A stretch of DNA of 32,000 nucleotides from Cuniculiplasma divulgatum (GTDB lineage: Archaea > Thermoplasmatota > Thermoplasmata > Thermoplasmatales > Thermoplasmataceae): assembly GCF_900083515.1 (NCBI RefSeq), contig NZ_LT671858.1, forward strand, positions 1,590,001 to 1,622,000, in the 5' to 3' direction. Below are positions 1,803 to 5,350 of the stretch, one piece after another. Within the stretch, counting starts at the first letter, position 1. Each line of letters opens with the position of its first letter. A model generated the notes under the pieces. The model worked only from the letters and a program-made list of their open reading frames with translations. It searched no databases and had not been told where the DNA came from. The position numbers were made by a program, and so were the translations under genes.

Positions 1803-2354
1803 TAAACCTACCTGTTATCTGTTAATTACTCCTGACGTAATAACTGTTTTCCAAATATTTAAATCGTTTCGTATAACTAGCGCTTACAATTGTTCTGATA
1901 AACCATCAACTAAGATTCAACGCTTAGAAATTATTGAATGACAATTAACAAACTTCTAGCAGTGTCATGAATCTGATTGACAGAATTTGTAAGATTAATT
2001 ATACTTTTTTAAAATCTAACTGAAATAGAAAATTGATATTAAATAATGATTTCTAAAGAAAGGCGCGTACACTATTAGCTCATGCTGAGTAAGGAAGATA
2101 TTAAGGGACATGACCCATCTACTATCATATACATTGTGAACAAAATTTCTGCAGTGCAAAATTCATTCGGCAATTCCCTGATGTGGAAAATTTGTCGTTA
2201 AATAAAATCCATTTATGCTCTGTGTTTAAAATATTATTTTCTTGAGTTCAAATTGGAGTTATTGATAGAAAAAGCTCATGAAGCAATCTCGAAAATTAGC
2301 ATTGCCTGAAACTTAACAGAATGACTTCATTCCATTTATCTATTAAATCTATTG

Positions 2355-2368
2355 AAAGTATTATTTAG
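2355..2368 (+). promoter_or_regulatory. Putative archaeal BRE/TATA element for the SIR2-like cassette (leaderless-type spacing)
   Basis: aaagtATTATTTAg is centred about 24-25 nt upstream of the ATG at 2388. The same TATA-to-ATG spacing recurs at other first genes in this window. Confidence 0.3.
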
Positions 2369-2387
2369 TGATATATGATACTATTTT

Positions 2388-2669
2388 ATGGATTCGAATG
2401 AAAAAAGGATAGTCAAAGTTATTTCTATTCAACCTTTTCCAAGATCAGACACTGGAGAAAACCAGTTTCAGATTACATTTGGAAGATTTGCTCCTGTTCC
2501 AACGGAGAATATTGAGTATTTCAAATCTGACAATGCTGTTCCTCCAAAAACATTCCCAATAGTAGAGTTTGTTCTGTTTATGGAAAAAGAGGAAATTCCA
2601 TATAGAGTAGGAGAGAACTGGGAGTTAACCATCGAGGAAAAAGGAAGTTTTAGACTAAAAAAGATGTGA
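2388..2669 (+). CDS. Hypothetical small protein (93 aa), first gene of the SIR2-like cassette
   Basis: ORF with an ATG start. Its stop (2667-2669) overlaps the start region of the next ORF. I recognise no motif, and it has no TM segment or Cys. Coding status rests on operon packing and length only. Confidence 0.6.
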   Translation: MDSNEKRIVKVISIQPFPRSDTGENQFQITFGRFAPVPTENIEYFKSDNAVPPKTFPIVEFVLFMEKEEIPYRVGENWELTIEEKGSFRLKKM

Positions 2670-3391
2670 TTATGCTTCACGAACTGGCAAAACTTAAAAT
2701 TTCTCCAATACCTTTCAAAAGTAATTCTGGTTATTCAGCTCCAAGCAAAAGAAATCTGGAAAAAAGATATGGGAGAGATAGAGAAGAAAATGAAAATTAC
2801 GCCATGAGATCAGTATCTTATTCTGGTCTGATAAATTCGGAAATGCAAAGAGTGACCAAACCATATCTCAGAATAGATCGAACTCAAAGAAAATATGGAA
2901 GTAATATAATGGAAACAGGTCATATCAAGGTATCAAATTTCCTCGGGGAGATTTCAAATGAGGACCTTCTGAGCTACTCAACAATTAATCCTTTTATGCA
3001 AAAATTTTTGCAAAGTAACCATGTTATTCTCATATCAATTGATGATAAAAATAAACTCCTTGACGTGAAGGATTTGAAGTCAATGATAATTACTCAAAAA
3101 TTAAATAACGCCCTCACAAGTAAATTTGAATCAATATTGTATAGGGATATCAATAGTAAAGCACAAAAGAATGTTTATCAGATTGACGCAATTATAAAAC
3201 AAAAAATGGATTATATGCTAAAAGAGAAGACTTTCAAAGCATATCTAGAAGTAGAAGCTATTTTAGAATACTCTAAGCTCCACAGCGAATTGTGGCAAAA
3301 ATTCGATAATAAGGAGATTGATTTCGACACTTTGCTTAGAGAATCTCAGGAAAAATACAATTTAATTTTATCAGATTTGAAAGTTGATTGA
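2666..3391 (+). CDS. Hypothetical protein (241 aa), second gene of the SIR2-like cassette; basic N-terminal region and K/E/L-rich, probably coiled-coil C-terminal half
   Basis: Start is GTG at 2666 (4-nt overlap with the upstream stop) or ATG at 2672. The stop TGA at 3389-3391 is directly followed by the ATG of the SIR2 gene. I could not see a Walker A, TIR-like, nuclease or TM motif. Confidence 0.65.
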   Translation: MIMLHELAKLKISPIPFKSNSGYSAPSKRNLEKRYGRDREENENYAMRSVSYSGLINSEMQRVTKPYLRIDRTQRKYGSNIMETGHIKVSNFLGEISNEDLLSYSTINPFMQKFLQSNHVILISIDDKNKLLDVKDLKSMIITQKLNNALTSKFESILYRDINSKAQKNVYQIDAIIKQKMDYMLKEKTFKAYLEVEAILEYSKLHSELWQKFDNKEIDFDTLLRESQEKYNLILSDLKVD

Positions 3392-4360
3392 ATGGATTTT
3401 AGTTACTTAGGCAACAGATTATCTAAGGATATTGAGGGTGAACTGAGTGAGTATCTACCAGATTATCCGGATATTGGATCTCTTGCCTGGATAGTAGCCA
3501 ATACAGTGATTACTGAAGTTGAAAAGAATGGATCAAATATACTTCCTATGGATGGTATTGACCCTGAGATTTATTTGTTGCTTTTAGCAAGAGAATACTC
3601 CAAAAAGATATCTGAAAGGGTTTTTAAACTAAAAAACGAGGCTAAAGGTTTTTTTCAAAGTAACTACAAAATCTTACTACTTGTTGGTGCTGGTTTATCT
3701 TACGAGGCCGGGATGCCATTAACCAGACAATTAAAGGCGATTTTGAAAGCCATTGGCATTAAAACAACTGATGATAGAAATTTGAATGAGGCATTTAAGA
3801 CAGTAAAGACGAACCCTAGTTTAGATATAGAATTCAAGAAGAGATTTAGAAATTTAATCAATCAAAAAGTTTGTGAAAATAGTTCCCACACACTGATAGC
3901 ACAAAAATTCCTGGATGGAAGTATGCAGGAAATATTTTGTTTGAACTGGGACAACTTAATAGAACAAAGTTACAATAAATTGAATGGCAGTTATCCCATC
4001 AAAAAAATATCAAGTGAAGATGATTGCCCTCAAATTAATGATTCTTTTATTCACGCACTGTGGAAATTAAATGGTGATGTAGATGAAATTGATACAACTT
4101 GGATCTATCCTGGCGAGAATGGGAGAGTGTTCAATGGTTTGGATAAATATCTAAATTTTTTATTTAAGCAAACAGAAAAAACATTTATATCCTTAGCTGT
4201 GGGATATTCTGAATCTGATGAGAATATAAATAATAGTATAGTAACTAGGATCGAAGATCATTCAGCGTTTTTTAGAATTGGAATGGACATGCGACTTTTC
4301 AATAAATACGAAAATTATTTTTTAGTTTCGGCACAGTGGATACTACCTCAACTATTATGA
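3392..4360 (+). CDS. SIR2-like (SIR2_2 / ThsA-type) domain protein, 322 aa, with a ~95-aa N-terminal extension of unknown function
   Basis: Four collinear SIR2_2 blocks with ThsA-like spacing: LLLVGAGLSYEAGMP (aa 95-109), CLNWDNLIEQ (183-192, cf. TTNYDxLIE), LWKLNGDVDE (223-232, cf. KxHGD) and ISLAVGYSESDENI (266-279, cf. VGFSxTDxN). It has no CxxC...CxxC zinc module, so it is not a canonical sirtuin deacetylase. No SLOG, TIR or other C-terminal domain follows. Confidence 0.8.
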   Translation: MDFSYLGNRLSKDIEGELSEYLPDYPDIGSLAWIVANTVITEVEKNGSNILPMDGIDPEIYLLLLAREYSKKISERVFKLKNEAKGFFQSNYKILLLVGAGLSYEAGMPLTRQLKAILKAIGIKTTDDRNLNEAFKTVKTNPSLDIEFKKRFRNLINQKVCENSSHTLIAQKFLDGSMQEIFCLNWDNLIEQSYNKLNGSYPIKKISSEDDCPQINDSFIHALWKLNGDVDEIDTTWIYPGENGRVFNGLDKYLNFLFKQTEKTFISLAVGYSESDENINNSIVTRIEDHSAFFRIGMDMRLFNKYENYFLVSAQWILPQLL

Positions 4361-4837
4361 ACATAAACATAAAAATTTAAAAAACTCAATAAAGATTATT
4401 GTTTGGATTGAGTTTGCTTAGTAATTTCTGTTACTCTTACCTGAGAACAACTCATCGCTCAATTCCTTTAGTGAGAGTTTAGGAAAATATGTAAAGATTT
4501 CATTTGACACCGCACTTCCCTTATTCTTGCATATACAAGATCACAAAAACTGTTTTTAGATGCAGAGTTCATGAAGTTTACTGGTAATTGTTTAATTTTC
4601 TATTTTTATAAATGCTTTTAATAAATGAACACGAAAGGAGTTTGTTTTGTGGATAGATTTGTTATATGATAAAGTAGGATATTCTCACGACCATAACCTA
4701 TCAAAGGTTCTCACTTACAGTAATTTCAACTAAATTAGTTAATCTTCATTTTGAAGATGCAATATATTTAAATTTTGCATCATTGGCATCAGAGAAAAAT
4801 CACTAAAAAACTTGATATGTACACTCTTATTCCAGAC

Positions 4838-4844
4838 AAAAAAA
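4838..4844 (-). terminator. Possible archaeal oligo-T terminator downstream of the ChrB-like gene
   Basis: A run of 7 A on the + strand (T7 on the minus strand) lies about 36-42 nt past the stop at 4880-4882. Confidence 0.25.
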
Positions 4845-4879
4845 GAATTACTTCTTAATATACCTCTGTTTTACAGTAA

Positions 4880-5350
4880 TTATTTTTTTGCTGAATGCTC
4901 CAGTTTCTGTCCAGATTCCACTCTTTCCTTACAGTAGGCGTACAGGGCATCGTACATTGGAAACTGCAATTTCATATTTTCCATATCATTATGAGCAATA
5001 ATTCTGAAACCCATTGCAGCTGCTTCAAGTCCTGCAGATTCCACTGGTGCATCAGGTATGGATGCATCTGCTCCCCTTACTATTTTTGCCAGATCTAAAA
5101 GAGCCCGATCCATGATGTTGTATTTTTTAATTATTGCGTCAAAACTGACGTATTCCTTTCCATTCTCCTGAAAATGCATCAGCTCAACACCTGGAAAATC
5201 GAAAGGAGTAGCATTTTCCTTTTTTGCAGTTTCCATTACCTTGTCCTTTGGAACGAAGAGAAATATAGCGTCTTTATCAACAAATCTTGAAATCAACCAT
5301 GGACATGCAATTCTATCTACTTTTGCCTTCTCCCTTGTGACCCACTTCAT
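4880..5350 (-). CDS. Chromate-resistance ChrB C-terminal-domain-like protein (Chrome_Resist family)
   Basis: 156 aa. The N-terminal WVTREKAKVDRIACPWLISRFVDKDA matches the conserved VDRxACPWLIRRFID block of ChrB-type proteins. No chrA transporter is nearby. Confidence 0.65.
   Translation of the reverse strand: MKWVTREKAKVDRIACPWLISRFVDKDAIFLFVPKDKVMETAKKENATPFDFPGVELMHFQENGKEYVSFDAIIKKYNIMDRALLDLAKIVRGADASIPDAPVESAGLEAAAMGFRIIAHNDMENMKLQFPMYDALYAYCKERVESGQKLEHSAKK

What the first reader, a model, noticed from the sequence alone, without database searches (positions are those of the whole stretch)
4061..4078. Catalytic His of the SIR2 fold is replaced by Asn (K-L-N-G-D instead of K-x-H-G-D)
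Seen: codons 224-229 read TGG AAA TTA AAT GGT GAT = W-K-L-N-G-D. When the four motif blocks are aligned with B. cereus ThsA as I recall its sequence (VYKMHGDVEHP), Asn227 falls on the position of the conserved catalytic His. AAT differs from CAT by a single base. The upstream Asn of the N-x-D block (N185, cf. TTNYD) is retained. Established: in ThsA, DSR2 and sirtuins this His is needed for NAD+ cleavage. Inference: the protein could be an inactivated (binding or decoy) SIR2. Alternatively it may use a different base (His221 lies six residues upstream), or the change may be a recent mutation or a sequencing error. Any of these changes how the cassette should be interpreted.
Basis: partly seen in the sequence, partly recalled or inferred. 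Interest (0 to 1): 0.62.

Follow-up and report, generated by a model that had tools for sequence, protein, structure and literature searches.

The report
Defence-type SIR2 with asparagine for histidine
An archaeal relative of the NAD-destroying SIR2 enzymes that microbes use against viruses really has asparagine where every tested relative needs a catalytic histidine, and the change is old, conserved and has arisen several times in this family, so it is a kept variant of unknown chemistry and not an error or a dead gene.

Summary
Observation confirmed. ORF 3392-4360 (322 aa) is a defence-type SIR2_2 protein. Codon 4070-4072 (AAT) gives Asn227 in W-K-L-N-G-D. Profile alignments put it on the catalytic His of ThsA (YKLHGD), KomC (IKFHGD, H146) and the SPARSA Sir2.

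It is not an error or a fresh mutation. Asn is invariant in 13 sequences from independent assemblies, including a 61%-identical orthologue with the same AAT codon.

It is the third gene of a conserved, horizontally moved cassette: about 93 aa, about 240 aa, then SIR2. The His-bearing sister clade has the same three genes.

Of 60 family representatives, 51 have His and 9 do not (6 Asn, plus Ser, Gln, Cys). Asn arose at least three times. All other family-conserved pocket residues are kept. Long-term dN/dS (0.24-0.28) equals that of His forms (0.26-0.375).

His221 is not a substitute base. It also occurs in His-bearing members, and neither partner protein has a conserved His.

Most likely this is a selected variant that still binds NAD, with hydrolysis slowed or chemistry changed (SirTM has Gln at this position). 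A non-catalytic NAD-binding protein remains a serious rival.

This scan already noted Asn-for-His SIR2 families on other DNA.

The parts
2388..2669 (+). Gene A, a 93-aa protein that contains no His. It is the first gene of the cassette.
   Evidence: Translation. It is 78% identical in the Asn-clade orthologue L001 and 43% identical (E 9e-28) in the His-bearing sister cassette L044. dN/dS is 0.10-0.18. There is no Pfam, PADLOC or NCBIfam hit.
2672..3391 (+). Gene B, the family-wide partner of this SIR2. It is 239 aa from ATG 2672; the ORF list starts it at GTG 2666. It has a variable N-terminal half and a conserved C-terminal helical domain.
   Evidence: Gene callers on near-identical contigs give 239 aa. 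A homologue lies directly upstream of the SIR2 gene in 14 of 16 loci, and also in L024, L026 and L044. In the AF2 model, residues 1-108 have pLDDT below 50 and the C-terminal helices score 84-96. Foldseek finds no PDB match with E below 0.1. dN/dS is 0.5-0.7.
3392..4360 (+). SIR2_2 protein of 322 aa: an N-terminal helical extension of about 90 aa followed by a defence-type SIR2 core.
   Evidence: Pfam PF13289 at 28.4 bits. PADLOC ThsA1 model at E 1e-8, covering the SIR2 part only. AF2 model with pLDDT 84.4 and pTM 0.83. Foldseek top hits are BcThsA, SeThsA, DSR2, KomC, SPARSA Sir2 and SIR2/HerA, all at probability 1.0.
4070..4072 (+). AAT codon for Asn227, at the catalytic His column.
   Evidence: The codon is AAT in the window, L001 and L020. 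Independent Asn lineages use AAT (L026, L027) or AAC (L024/25). His relatives use CAT or CAC.
3944..3952 (+). N185-W186-D187, the N-x-D block. It corresponds to TTNYD of ThsA and KomC.
   Evidence: Invariant in all 60 family representatives, including every non-His variant. It aligns to NYD or NFD of ThsA, KomC and SPARSA Sir2.
3686..3700 (+). G99-A-G-L-S103, the Rossmann NAD-binding loop.
   Evidence: G99, G101 and S103 are invariant in the family and retained in the Asn forms.
4052..4054 (+).
   Evidence: The column is His in 25 of 60 members, including His227-type members. It lies just before strand 223-225 in the model. It aligns to non-His residues in ThsA, KomC and SPARSA Sir2.
3887..3889 (+). 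His166 (CAC), a His conserved in about 90% of the family in the small subdomain. It is polymorphic (H166Y) in 99.9%-identical environmental strains.
1876..4887 (.). Low-GC island of about 3 kb that carries the cassette. It is absent from the closest congener.
   Evidence: GC is 30-32% against about 40% in the flanks. In genome G088 the two flanks (79-88% identical) lie 317 bp apart. Nucleotide similarity to the orthologous cassette covers only 2349-4365.

Best explanation
Asn227 is an old, inherited and selectively maintained replacement of the catalytic His in a defence-type SIR2. This SIR2 is the output subunit of an uncharacterised, horizontally mobile three-gene cassette found mostly in archaea (A about 93 aa, B about 240 aa, SIR2).

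The NAD pocket is otherwise intact. The protein therefore most likely still binds NAD+ with the ribose held by N185, D187 and the Asn227 amide, and still acts as the working part of the cassette. Its chemistry would be re-tuned: either much slower NAD+ hydrolysis, which lowers self-toxicity, or ADP-ribosyl transfer of the kind seen in SirTM sirtuins, where Gln occupies this position.

Shown here: the column assignment, the age and recurrence of the change, retention of all other conserved residues, constraint equal to that of His forms, and identical cassette architecture in His and Asn forms.

Inferred: NAD binding, residual or altered catalysis, and a defence role.
For: Column.

Fixation: Asn in 13 of 13 sequences of two clusters and the same AAT codon across dS of about 1.

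Recurrence: on a 60-row tree the Asn label needs 4 changes, which starred branches force, and 0% of bootstrap trees give a single origin. That means at least three independent origins. If P0022 Ser and P0052 Cys are read as further changes from Asn (see the full report), all four first-step replacements are amides (Asn three times, Gln once). Rough chance of that is 0.02, and 0.007 for Asn in at least 3 of 4.

Pocket: G99, G101, S103, P109, F148, F152, H166, N185, W186, D187, E191, W224, K225, G228, D229, W237, P240, G271, Y272 and E274 are all retained in the window clade and P0023; P0034/P0039 keep the motif residues, with one of the two differing at W237. Only 227 and the weakly conserved 177 are specific to the window clade.

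Constraint: SIR2 dN/dS is 0.24-0.28 between the window and L001, against 0.26-0.375 among His forms. Asn-clade branches (0.64-0.67 from the shared node) are shorter than those of the His sister clade (0.77-0.82).

No other effector: A and B have no enzyme-family hits. The same A-B-SIR2 architecture carries His in the sister clade, and B+SIR2 carries Asn in P0023 and P0039.

Precedent: SirTM has Gln137 in place of the catalytic His and is a robust ADP-ribosyltransferase (PMC4518038).
Against: Every tested defence-type SIR2 loses NADase activity when this His is mutated: KomC H146A (PMC13454610) and FAM118B H206A (PMC12700824). DSR2 H171A is used to trap NAD+ (PDB titles). KomC(H146N) itself is deposited as an engineered mutant (9xvc).

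No compensating substitution, such as the Arg that partners Gln in SirTM, was found.

Recent evolution shows an excess of amino-acid changes in the Asn forms. There are 4 nonsynonymous and 0 synonymous SNPs, all in SIR2, among 99.9%-identical strains, and two hit conserved pocket residues (H166Y, Y104H). Between L001 and L020, SIR2 has 8N:2S and B has 7N:1S, against 3N:16S in the neighbouring integrase.

No activity, expression or defence phenotype was measured.
Confidence: 0.45

Rival explanations
1. NAD-binding pseudoenzyme. Asn227 abolishes turnover, and the protein is kept as a non-catalytic NAD (or related nucleotide) sensor, scaffold or filament subunit. The cassette's output then comes from A or B, or from sequestration or assembly.
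For: His-to-Ala or His-to-Asn mutants of characterised relatives are treated as catalytically dead but still bind NAD. The pocket is conserved without any compensating change. Scaffolding roles have been proposed for Sir2-like domains, for example in SAMD9L.
Against: A and B show no recognisable effector domain. The cassette architecture is identical in His and Asn forms, so a change of output module is not visible. The preference for amide side chains fits ribose positioning, but that is needed for binding as well as for catalysis, so it does not discriminate.
Confidence: 0.3
2. Disarmed relic. The His was lost to relieve self-toxicity. The cassette is now non-functional cargo that has simply not yet decayed.
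For: There is an excess of nonsynonymous polymorphism in SIR2 and B at short time scales, including hits on conserved H166 and Y104. Some other non-His members (P0052 Cys, P0022 Ser) do show further loss of conserved residues. The cassette is sporadic: 5 of 148 genomes in the order and 0 of 12 congeners.
Against: All three ORFs are intact in every full-length copy seen. Long-term dN/dS is 0.24-0.28, the same as in His forms, over dS of about 1. Gene A has dN/dS of 0.10-0.18. All conserved motifs are retained. The Asn clade evolves more slowly than its His sister. Inflated dN/dS at very short divergence is a known general effect.
Confidence: 0.15
3. Artefact or trivial explanation: a sequencing error, a very recent mutation, or a misalignment in which His221 is the true catalytic residue.
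For: AAT is one base from CAT.
Against: The identical protein is on 19 contigs from NCBI, JGI, ENA and Logan. Asn is present in all 13 cluster members and in a 61%-identical orthologue. The invariant flanking residues W-K and G-D fix the register. The His221 column is His in many His227-type members.
Confidence: 0.02

Closest known systems
ThsA SIR2 domain (Thoeris; BcThsA 8btp/8bto, SeThsA 7uxt, EcThsA 8wc0)
   Same: It is the best sequence-profile and fold match (E 2.9e-12; Foldseek probability 1.0). It has the same GAGxS, N-x-D and K-x-H-G-D blocks in the same order.
   Different: The window protein has no SLOG domain: it is 322 aa, and the PADLOC match covers only positions 24-209 of 478. 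There is no TIR (ThsB) partner in the cassette. It has Asn where ThsA has the essential His. It carries a family-specific N-terminal helical extension and the partner gene B.
KomC of the Kongming system (8zsf; KomC(H146N) 9xvc)
   Same: It is a small SIR2-only protein encoded in a three-gene cassette and works with a small partner. The profile match is E 2.7e-9. The engineered H146N mutant is the exact counterpart of the natural Asn227.
   Different: The partners are unrelated: there is no HAM1-like KomB and no deaminase KomA. KomC needs H146, since H146A abolishes NADase activity and defence (PMC13454610).
SirTM (class M sirtuins, e.g. SpySirTM)
   Same: It is a natural sirtuin-fold enzyme with an amide side chain (Gln137) at the catalytic His position that contacts the ribose 3'-OH. 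It retains the conserved Asn and is catalytically active as an ADP-ribosyltransferase (PMC4518038). One family member here, P0042, even has Gln.
   Different: It belongs to a different sirtuin class and a different operon (macrodomain, GcvH-L, LplA2). The partner Arg192 has no identified counterpart here. Here the residue is Asn, not Gln. No acceptor protein is known.
DSR2, SPARSA Sir2-APAZ and SIR2-HerA
   Same: They share the defence-type SIR2 fold and motifs.
   Different: They are large multidomain proteins or partners of Argonaute or HerA. All use His. None has the B partner.
Asn-for-His SIR2 families noted earlier in this scan (other genomes; unverified AI notes)
   Same: They show the same single substitution in defence-island SIR2_2 proteins and were reported as fixed and under selection.
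   Different: Those are described as families in which Asn is universal, mostly bacterial and mostly stand-alone. Here His is the family norm and Asn arose repeatedly within one family of cassettes found mostly in archaea.

Membership tests
SIR2_2 (PF13289) / defence-type SIR2 fold | Match to the family profile above the curated cut-off | tested here: met
   28.4 bits against a cut-off of 24.5, E 1.9e-6, residues 180-284.
SIR2_2 (PF13289) / defence-type SIR2 fold | Rossmann GAGxS loop and N-x-D block | tested here: met
   G99-A-G-L-S103 and N185-W-D187 are invariant in the family and aligned to ThsA, KomC and SPARSA Sir2.
SIR2_2 (PF13289) / defence-type SIR2 fold | Fold similarity to solved defence sirtuins | tested here: met
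   AF2 model with pLDDT 84.4. Foldseek probability is 1.0 to ThsA, DSR2, KomC, SPARSA Sir2 and SIR2/HerA, with TM-score (query-normalised) 0.41-0.49; the extra N-terminal helices lower it.
SIR2_2 (PF13289) / defence-type SIR2 fold | Catalytic His in the x-H-G-D block | tested here: not met
   Asn227 (AAT) is at that column.
SIR2 NADase (enzymatic activity) | NAD+ cleavage | not testable with these tools
   This needs biochemistry. It is only inferred from pocket conservation.
Thoeris ThsA | C-terminal SLOG (STALD) signal-binding domain | tested here: not met
   The protein ends at residue 322, and the PADLOC ThsA1 match covers model positions 24-209 of 478 only.
Thoeris ThsA | Adjacent TIR-domain ThsB | tested here: not met
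   Genes A and B have no TIR hit in Pfam, PADLOC or NCBIfam.
Kongming (KomABC) | HAM1-like KomB and deaminase KomA partners | tested here: not met
   Neither A nor B hits any such family. The B model has no PDB fold match.
SIR2-HerA | Adjacent HerA-type ATPase | tested here: not met
   There is no ATPase gene in the island 1876-4887.
SirTM (class M sirtuin) | Gln at the His position with a partner Arg, and an operon with macrodomain and GcvH-L | tested here: not met
   The residue is Asn, not Gln. No clade-specific Arg was found. There is no macrodomain or GcvH in the cassette. The resemblance is mechanistic only.
B+SIR2 cassette family (unnamed, defined here) | SIR2 with W-K-x-[HN]-G-D and N-W-D motifs, immediately preceded by a gene B homologue | tested here: met
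   Gene B lies directly upstream in 14 of 16 loci, and also in L024, L026 and L044. The window has both genes.

The most novel reading that the evidence does not exclude
Asn (or Gln) at the catalytic His position marks a repeated evolutionary switch of defence-type SIR2 effectors. The switch would go from bulk NAD+ hydrolysis to a different NAD-dependent reaction, for example ADP-ribosylation of a protein or nucleic-acid target as in SirTM. This family offers natural His/Asn sister cassettes with identical gene content in which the switch can be measured directly.
Probability: 0.2. Interest if true: 0.75.

Novelty: new variant of a known kind. Interest (0 to 1): 0.5.

Why it matters
All experimentally studied anti-viral SIR2 effectors (ThsA, DSR2, KomC, SPARSA, SIR2-HerA, human FAM118) are treated as His-dependent NADases, and annotation pipelines equate a SIR2 hit with NAD depletion. 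Here one family shows the His replaced by Asn at least three separate times. The replacement is kept for a long time under the same constraint as the His forms. That means either a second chemistry exists or a non-catalytic role exists for this fold in immunity.

The family also supplies a clean test pair. The window cassette (Asn) and its sister (His, P0014/L044) have the same three genes. Reciprocal swaps can therefore answer what the Asn does.

For genome annotation, the cassette should not be labelled an NAD-depleting system without a caveat.

Tried and rejected
I substituted independent assemblies.

(2) A wider census with a 50-sequence profile in the search for homologous proteins returned only 7 proteins because of word-index saturation. 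It was useless, so the census rests on the 150 listed 50%-identity representatives.

(3) Partner functions: Pfam, PADLOC and NCBIfam gave nothing credible for A or B. The AF2 model of B is confident only in the C-terminal helical domain, and Foldseek found no PDB match with E below 0.1.

(4) His supplied in trans: rejected. Gene A has no His at all, and no His of B is conserved between the window and L001.

(5) His221 or a new clade-specific base: rejected.

(6) I first concluded that gene A is specific to the Asn clade, because only two clusters were found. This was wrong. The His-bearing sister cassette has a 43%-identical gene A.

(7) Remnants of the HNH or integrase genes that flank the orthologous cassette: none in the window's non-coding flanks. 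No att-like flanking repeats were found.

(8) Literature searches found no paper describing natural Asn-for-His SIR2 proteins.

Full report
WHAT IS THERE

The window comes from a complete 1,938,699-bp archaeal chromosome. The size fits the 1.87-1.94 Mbp reported for that species (PMC5155288), but I did not verify the name.

Three tightly packed + strand genes lie at 2388-4360:
- gene A, 93 aa;
- gene B, 239 aa from ATG 2672, as called on near-identical contigs;
- a 322-aa SIR2_2 protein at 3392-4360.

The SIR2 protein passes Pfam PF13289 (28.4 bits against a cut-off of 24.5). Its AlphaFold model (pLDDT 84.4, pTM 0.83) matches only defence-type sirtuins in the PDB: BcThsA, SeThsA, DSR2, KomC, SPARSA Sir2 and SIR2/HerA, all at probability 1.0.

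THE OBSERVATION

Bases 4061-4078 read W224-K-L-N227-G-D229, and the Asn codon is AAT at 4070-4072. A profile of the family aligns this block with:
- YKLHGDVE of ThsA (7uxt, E 2.9e-12);
- IKFHGDFD of KomC (8zsf);
- AKIHGD of the SPARSA Sir2 (8jkz).

The flanking W224, K225, G228 and D229 are invariant or nearly so in the family, so the register is fixed. Asn227 therefore occupies the catalytic His column. H146 of KomC, at this column, is the residue whose H146A mutation abolishes NADase activity and defence (PMC13454610). The PDB even holds an engineered KomC(H146N) (9xvc).

NOT AN ERROR, NOT RECENT

- The exact protein is recorded on 19 contigs from NCBI, JGI, ENA and Logan.
- All 13 members of its own 90%-identity cluster and of the next cluster (61% identity) have Asn.
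- The 61% orthologue (loci L001 and L020-23) uses the same AAT codon although synonymous sites are saturated (dS about 1).

THE FAMILY AND ITS CASSETTE

An exhaustive HMMER search of 1.84 billion cluster representatives found 174 relatives. Genome-derived loci place the family mostly in archaea: Thermoproteota, Methanodesulfokora, Thermoplasmata and Thaumarchaeota. A few members are in Dehalococcoidia and other bacteria.

A homologue of gene B lies directly upstream of the SIR2 gene in 14 of 16 loci examined, and also in L024, L026 and L044. B+SIR2 is therefore the core module. A third, variable gene usually precedes it: about 300 aa in one subgroup, 198-208 aa in others.

The window's gene A is shared with the 61% orthologue (78% identity). 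It is also shared with the His-bearing sister clade (P0014, L044-46), at 43% identity and E 9e-28. I first thought A was confined to the Asn clade; one search corrects that. Neither A nor B matches any Pfam, PADLOC or NCBIfam family. The model of B is confident only for a C-terminal helical domain and has no PDB fold match.

MOBILITY AND CONTEXT

- The cassette sits in a 30-32% GC island within a chromosome of about 40% GC.
- In the closest congener the two flanks (79-88% identical) are 317 bp apart instead of about 3 kb.
- None of 12 congeners and only 5 of 148 genomes of the order carry the family.
- Similarity to the orthologous cassette covers just 2349-4365, at 70% nucleotide identity.
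- In that other genome the cassette lies beside an HNH endonuclease, a tyrosine integrase, a D12 methyltransferase, a NOV_C protein and ParA.
- The His sister cassette lies beside a ThsB-type TIR gene and QueC/TGT/QueF genes.

This is the distribution expected of a mobile defence or conflict module. No defence phenotype has been shown.

HOW UNUSUAL IS ASN IN THIS FAMILY

Among 60 full-length representatives, 51 have His. Six have Asn, and one each has Ser, Gln and Cys.

On a maximum-likelihood tree the window clade (Asn) is sister to the His-bearing P0009/P0014 clade (support 100/99). The Asn label needs four changes, which starred branches force, and no bootstrap tree gives a single origin. 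That means at least three independent His-to-Asn events:
- the window clade;
- P0023;
- P0034 and P0039, with P0052 Cys nested within them.

Each event is a single C-to-A change, from CAY to AAY. The Ser and Cys variants sit next to Asn variants, and their codons are reachable through Asn (my inference). Read that way, the four first-step replacements are Asn three times and Gln once, so all are amides. A crude calculation gives 0.02 for that by chance, and 0.007 for Asn in at least three of four. Loss of His is also more frequent in this short-form family (9 of 60) than among the other listed relatives (2 of 86; p = 0.008, not corrected for phylogeny).

IS THE ASN FORM DECAYING

It is not decaying over the long term.
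- In the window clade and P0023 every family-conserved residue is retained. In P0034/P0039 the motif residues G99, G101, S103, H166, N185, W186, D187, E191, W224, K225, G228, D229, P240, G271, Y272 and E274 are retained. One of those two sequences differs at W237 and a few other conserved columns, and both differ at V246 and R295.
- The only positions at which the window clade differs from all His forms are 227 and the weakly conserved 177.
- SIR2 dN/dS between the window and L001 is 0.24-0.28. Among His forms it is 0.26-0.375.
- From their common node, the Asn clade has shorter branches (0.64-0.67) than its His sister clade (0.77-0.82).
- Gene A is strongly constrained (0.10-0.18). Gene B evolves fast (0.5-0.7).

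A CAVEAT FROM RECENT VARIATION

Environmental contigs 99.9% identical to the window differ from it at only four bases over 2.1-2.7 kb. All four lie in the SIR2 gene and all are nonsynonymous. They form two haplotypes: E20K with H166Y, and L95F with Y104H. H166 and Y104 are conserved pocket-region residues.

Between L001 and L020 (98.7% identical), SIR2 has 8 nonsynonymous and 2 synonymous changes and B has 7 and 1. The adjacent integrase has 3 and 16 (Fisher p = 5e-5).

This could be the usual inflation of dN/dS at very short divergence. It could be diversifying selection, as in many defence genes. It could be recent relaxation or selection against a costly activity. I cannot tell which, and it keeps the relic reading alive at about 0.15.

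ALTERNATIVE CATALYTIC BASES

- His221 is not a replacement. Its column is His in 25 of 60 members, including many with His227. It aligns to non-His residues in ThsA, KomC and SPARSA Sir2. It lies just before strand 223-225, whereas residue 227 follows that strand.
- His166 is a family-wide conserved residue present in both forms.
- Gene A contains no His, and no His of gene B is conserved between the two Asn-clade orthologues. A His donated in trans is therefore unlikely.

MECHANISM

Established knowledge: in sirtuins the His contacts the nicotinamide-ribose hydroxyls and acts as general base. In defence NADases, mutation of this His abolishes activity (PMC13454610; PMC12700824 for FAM118B H206A). 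In class M sirtuins the position is Gln137, which hydrogen-bonds the ribose 3'-OH, and the enzyme is a robust ADP-ribosyltransferase that depends on the conserved Asn (PMC4518038).

Given an intact pocket, a repeated preference for an amide side chain, unchanged cassette architecture and the absence of any other recognisable effector, my best reading (0.45) is as follows. The Asn form still binds NAD+ and remains the output subunit, with attenuated hydrolysis or altered ADP-ribosyl-transfer chemistry.

The main rival (0.30) is a non-catalytic NAD-binding subunit. Scaffolding roles have been proposed for Sir2-like domains such as that of SAMD9L. A disarmed relic gets 0.15, and artefact or misalignment 0.02.

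COMPARISON WITH KNOWN SYSTEMS

The protein works like, and folds like, the SIR2 domain of ThsA and like KomC. It is not a member of the following systems:
- Thoeris: no SLOG domain and no TIR partner;
- Kongming: no KomA or KomB;
- SIR2-HerA: no ATPase;
- SirTM: different class, different operon, and Asn rather than Gln with Arg.

It belongs to an unnamed B+SIR2 cassette family. It fails one defining feature of catalytic SIR2 enzymes, the His.

Earlier notes of this scan (unverified AI notes, not independent evidence) report Asn-for-His SIR2 families in at least five other genomes, so the phenomenon has been seen before on other DNA. What is particular here is that His is the family norm and Asn arose repeatedly, with a His sister cassette of identical gene content. 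My literature searches found no description of natural Asn-for-His SIR2 proteins.

VERDICT

The substitution is real, old, recurrent and selectively maintained at the catalytic position of a defence-type SIR2. It is a new variant of a known kind. Its function is unresolved but directly testable. Interest is 0.5.

Noticed in passing
window 3449, 3676, 3701, 3887 (loci L037, L038, L039): Contigs 99.9% identical to the window differ from it at only four bases over 2.1-2.7 kb. All four are in the SIR2 gene and all are nonsynonymous: E20K with H166Y, and L95F with Y104H. Two hit conserved pocket residues. There are no changes in genes A or B or in the spacers.
   Followed up: partly
L001 against L020 (cassette plus HNH and integrase): At 98.7% identity, SIR2 shows 8N:2S and gene B 7N:1S, but the adjacent integrase shows 3N:16S (Fisher p = 5e-5). 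The cassette genes carry an excess of amino-acid changes at short time scales.
   Followed up: partly
window 1876-4887; G088:C1:32088-32406: This is an empty site. In the closest congener the fixC-like and ChrB_C flanks are 317 bp apart, so the 3-kb low-GC island is an insertion here or a deletion there. No integrase, tRNA or flanking repeat was found in the window.
   Followed up: yes
L020-L023 (GCA_021790415.1 and related metagenome contigs): The 61%-identical Asn cassette lies in a mobile or defence island with an HNH endonuclease, a 409-aa tyrosine integrase, a D12-class methyltransferase next to a 478-aa ORF, a NOV_C protein and ParA.
   Followed up: no
L044-L046 (P0014; GCA_029785675.1, GCA_021844725.1): The His-bearing sister cassette (95 + 262 + 323 aa) sits next to QueF, TGT and QueC genes (7-deazaguanine type), an Ogg-HhH gene and a ThsB-type TIR gene. 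This sister SIR2 has itself lost other family-conserved residues (GYSE is GCSE, and GRVF is replaced).
   Followed up: no
proteins P0022, P0042, P0052, P0095, P0142: These are further non-His variants at the same column: Ser, Gln, Cys, Lys and Tyr. P0052 (Cys) and P0022 (Ser) also lack several other conserved residues and may be truly degenerate.
   Followed up: partly
window 2672-3391 (gene B): The N-terminal 108 residues of gene B are predicted with pLDDT below 50 and are poorly conserved even at 44% overall identity. The C-terminal helical domain of about 130 residues, with the L-W-x-x-F-D-x-x-x-I-D-[FY]-D-T-L-L motif, is the conserved part across the family.
   Followed up: partly
L002/L003 2554-8548: Next to a His-type cassette lie a DUF87 (HerA/VirB4-like) ATPase of about 705 aa, a ThiF-family E1-like protein and several acidic repeat proteins. 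This may be an integrated conjugative or defence element.
   Followed up: no
L040 (P0159): The apparent C-terminal variant of the protein (ending ...QWIRDRKSVV) coincides with the end of a 1,975-bp contig. The DNA is 100% identical to the window up to 4343, so it is an assembly-end artefact and not a frameshift allele.
   Followed up: yes
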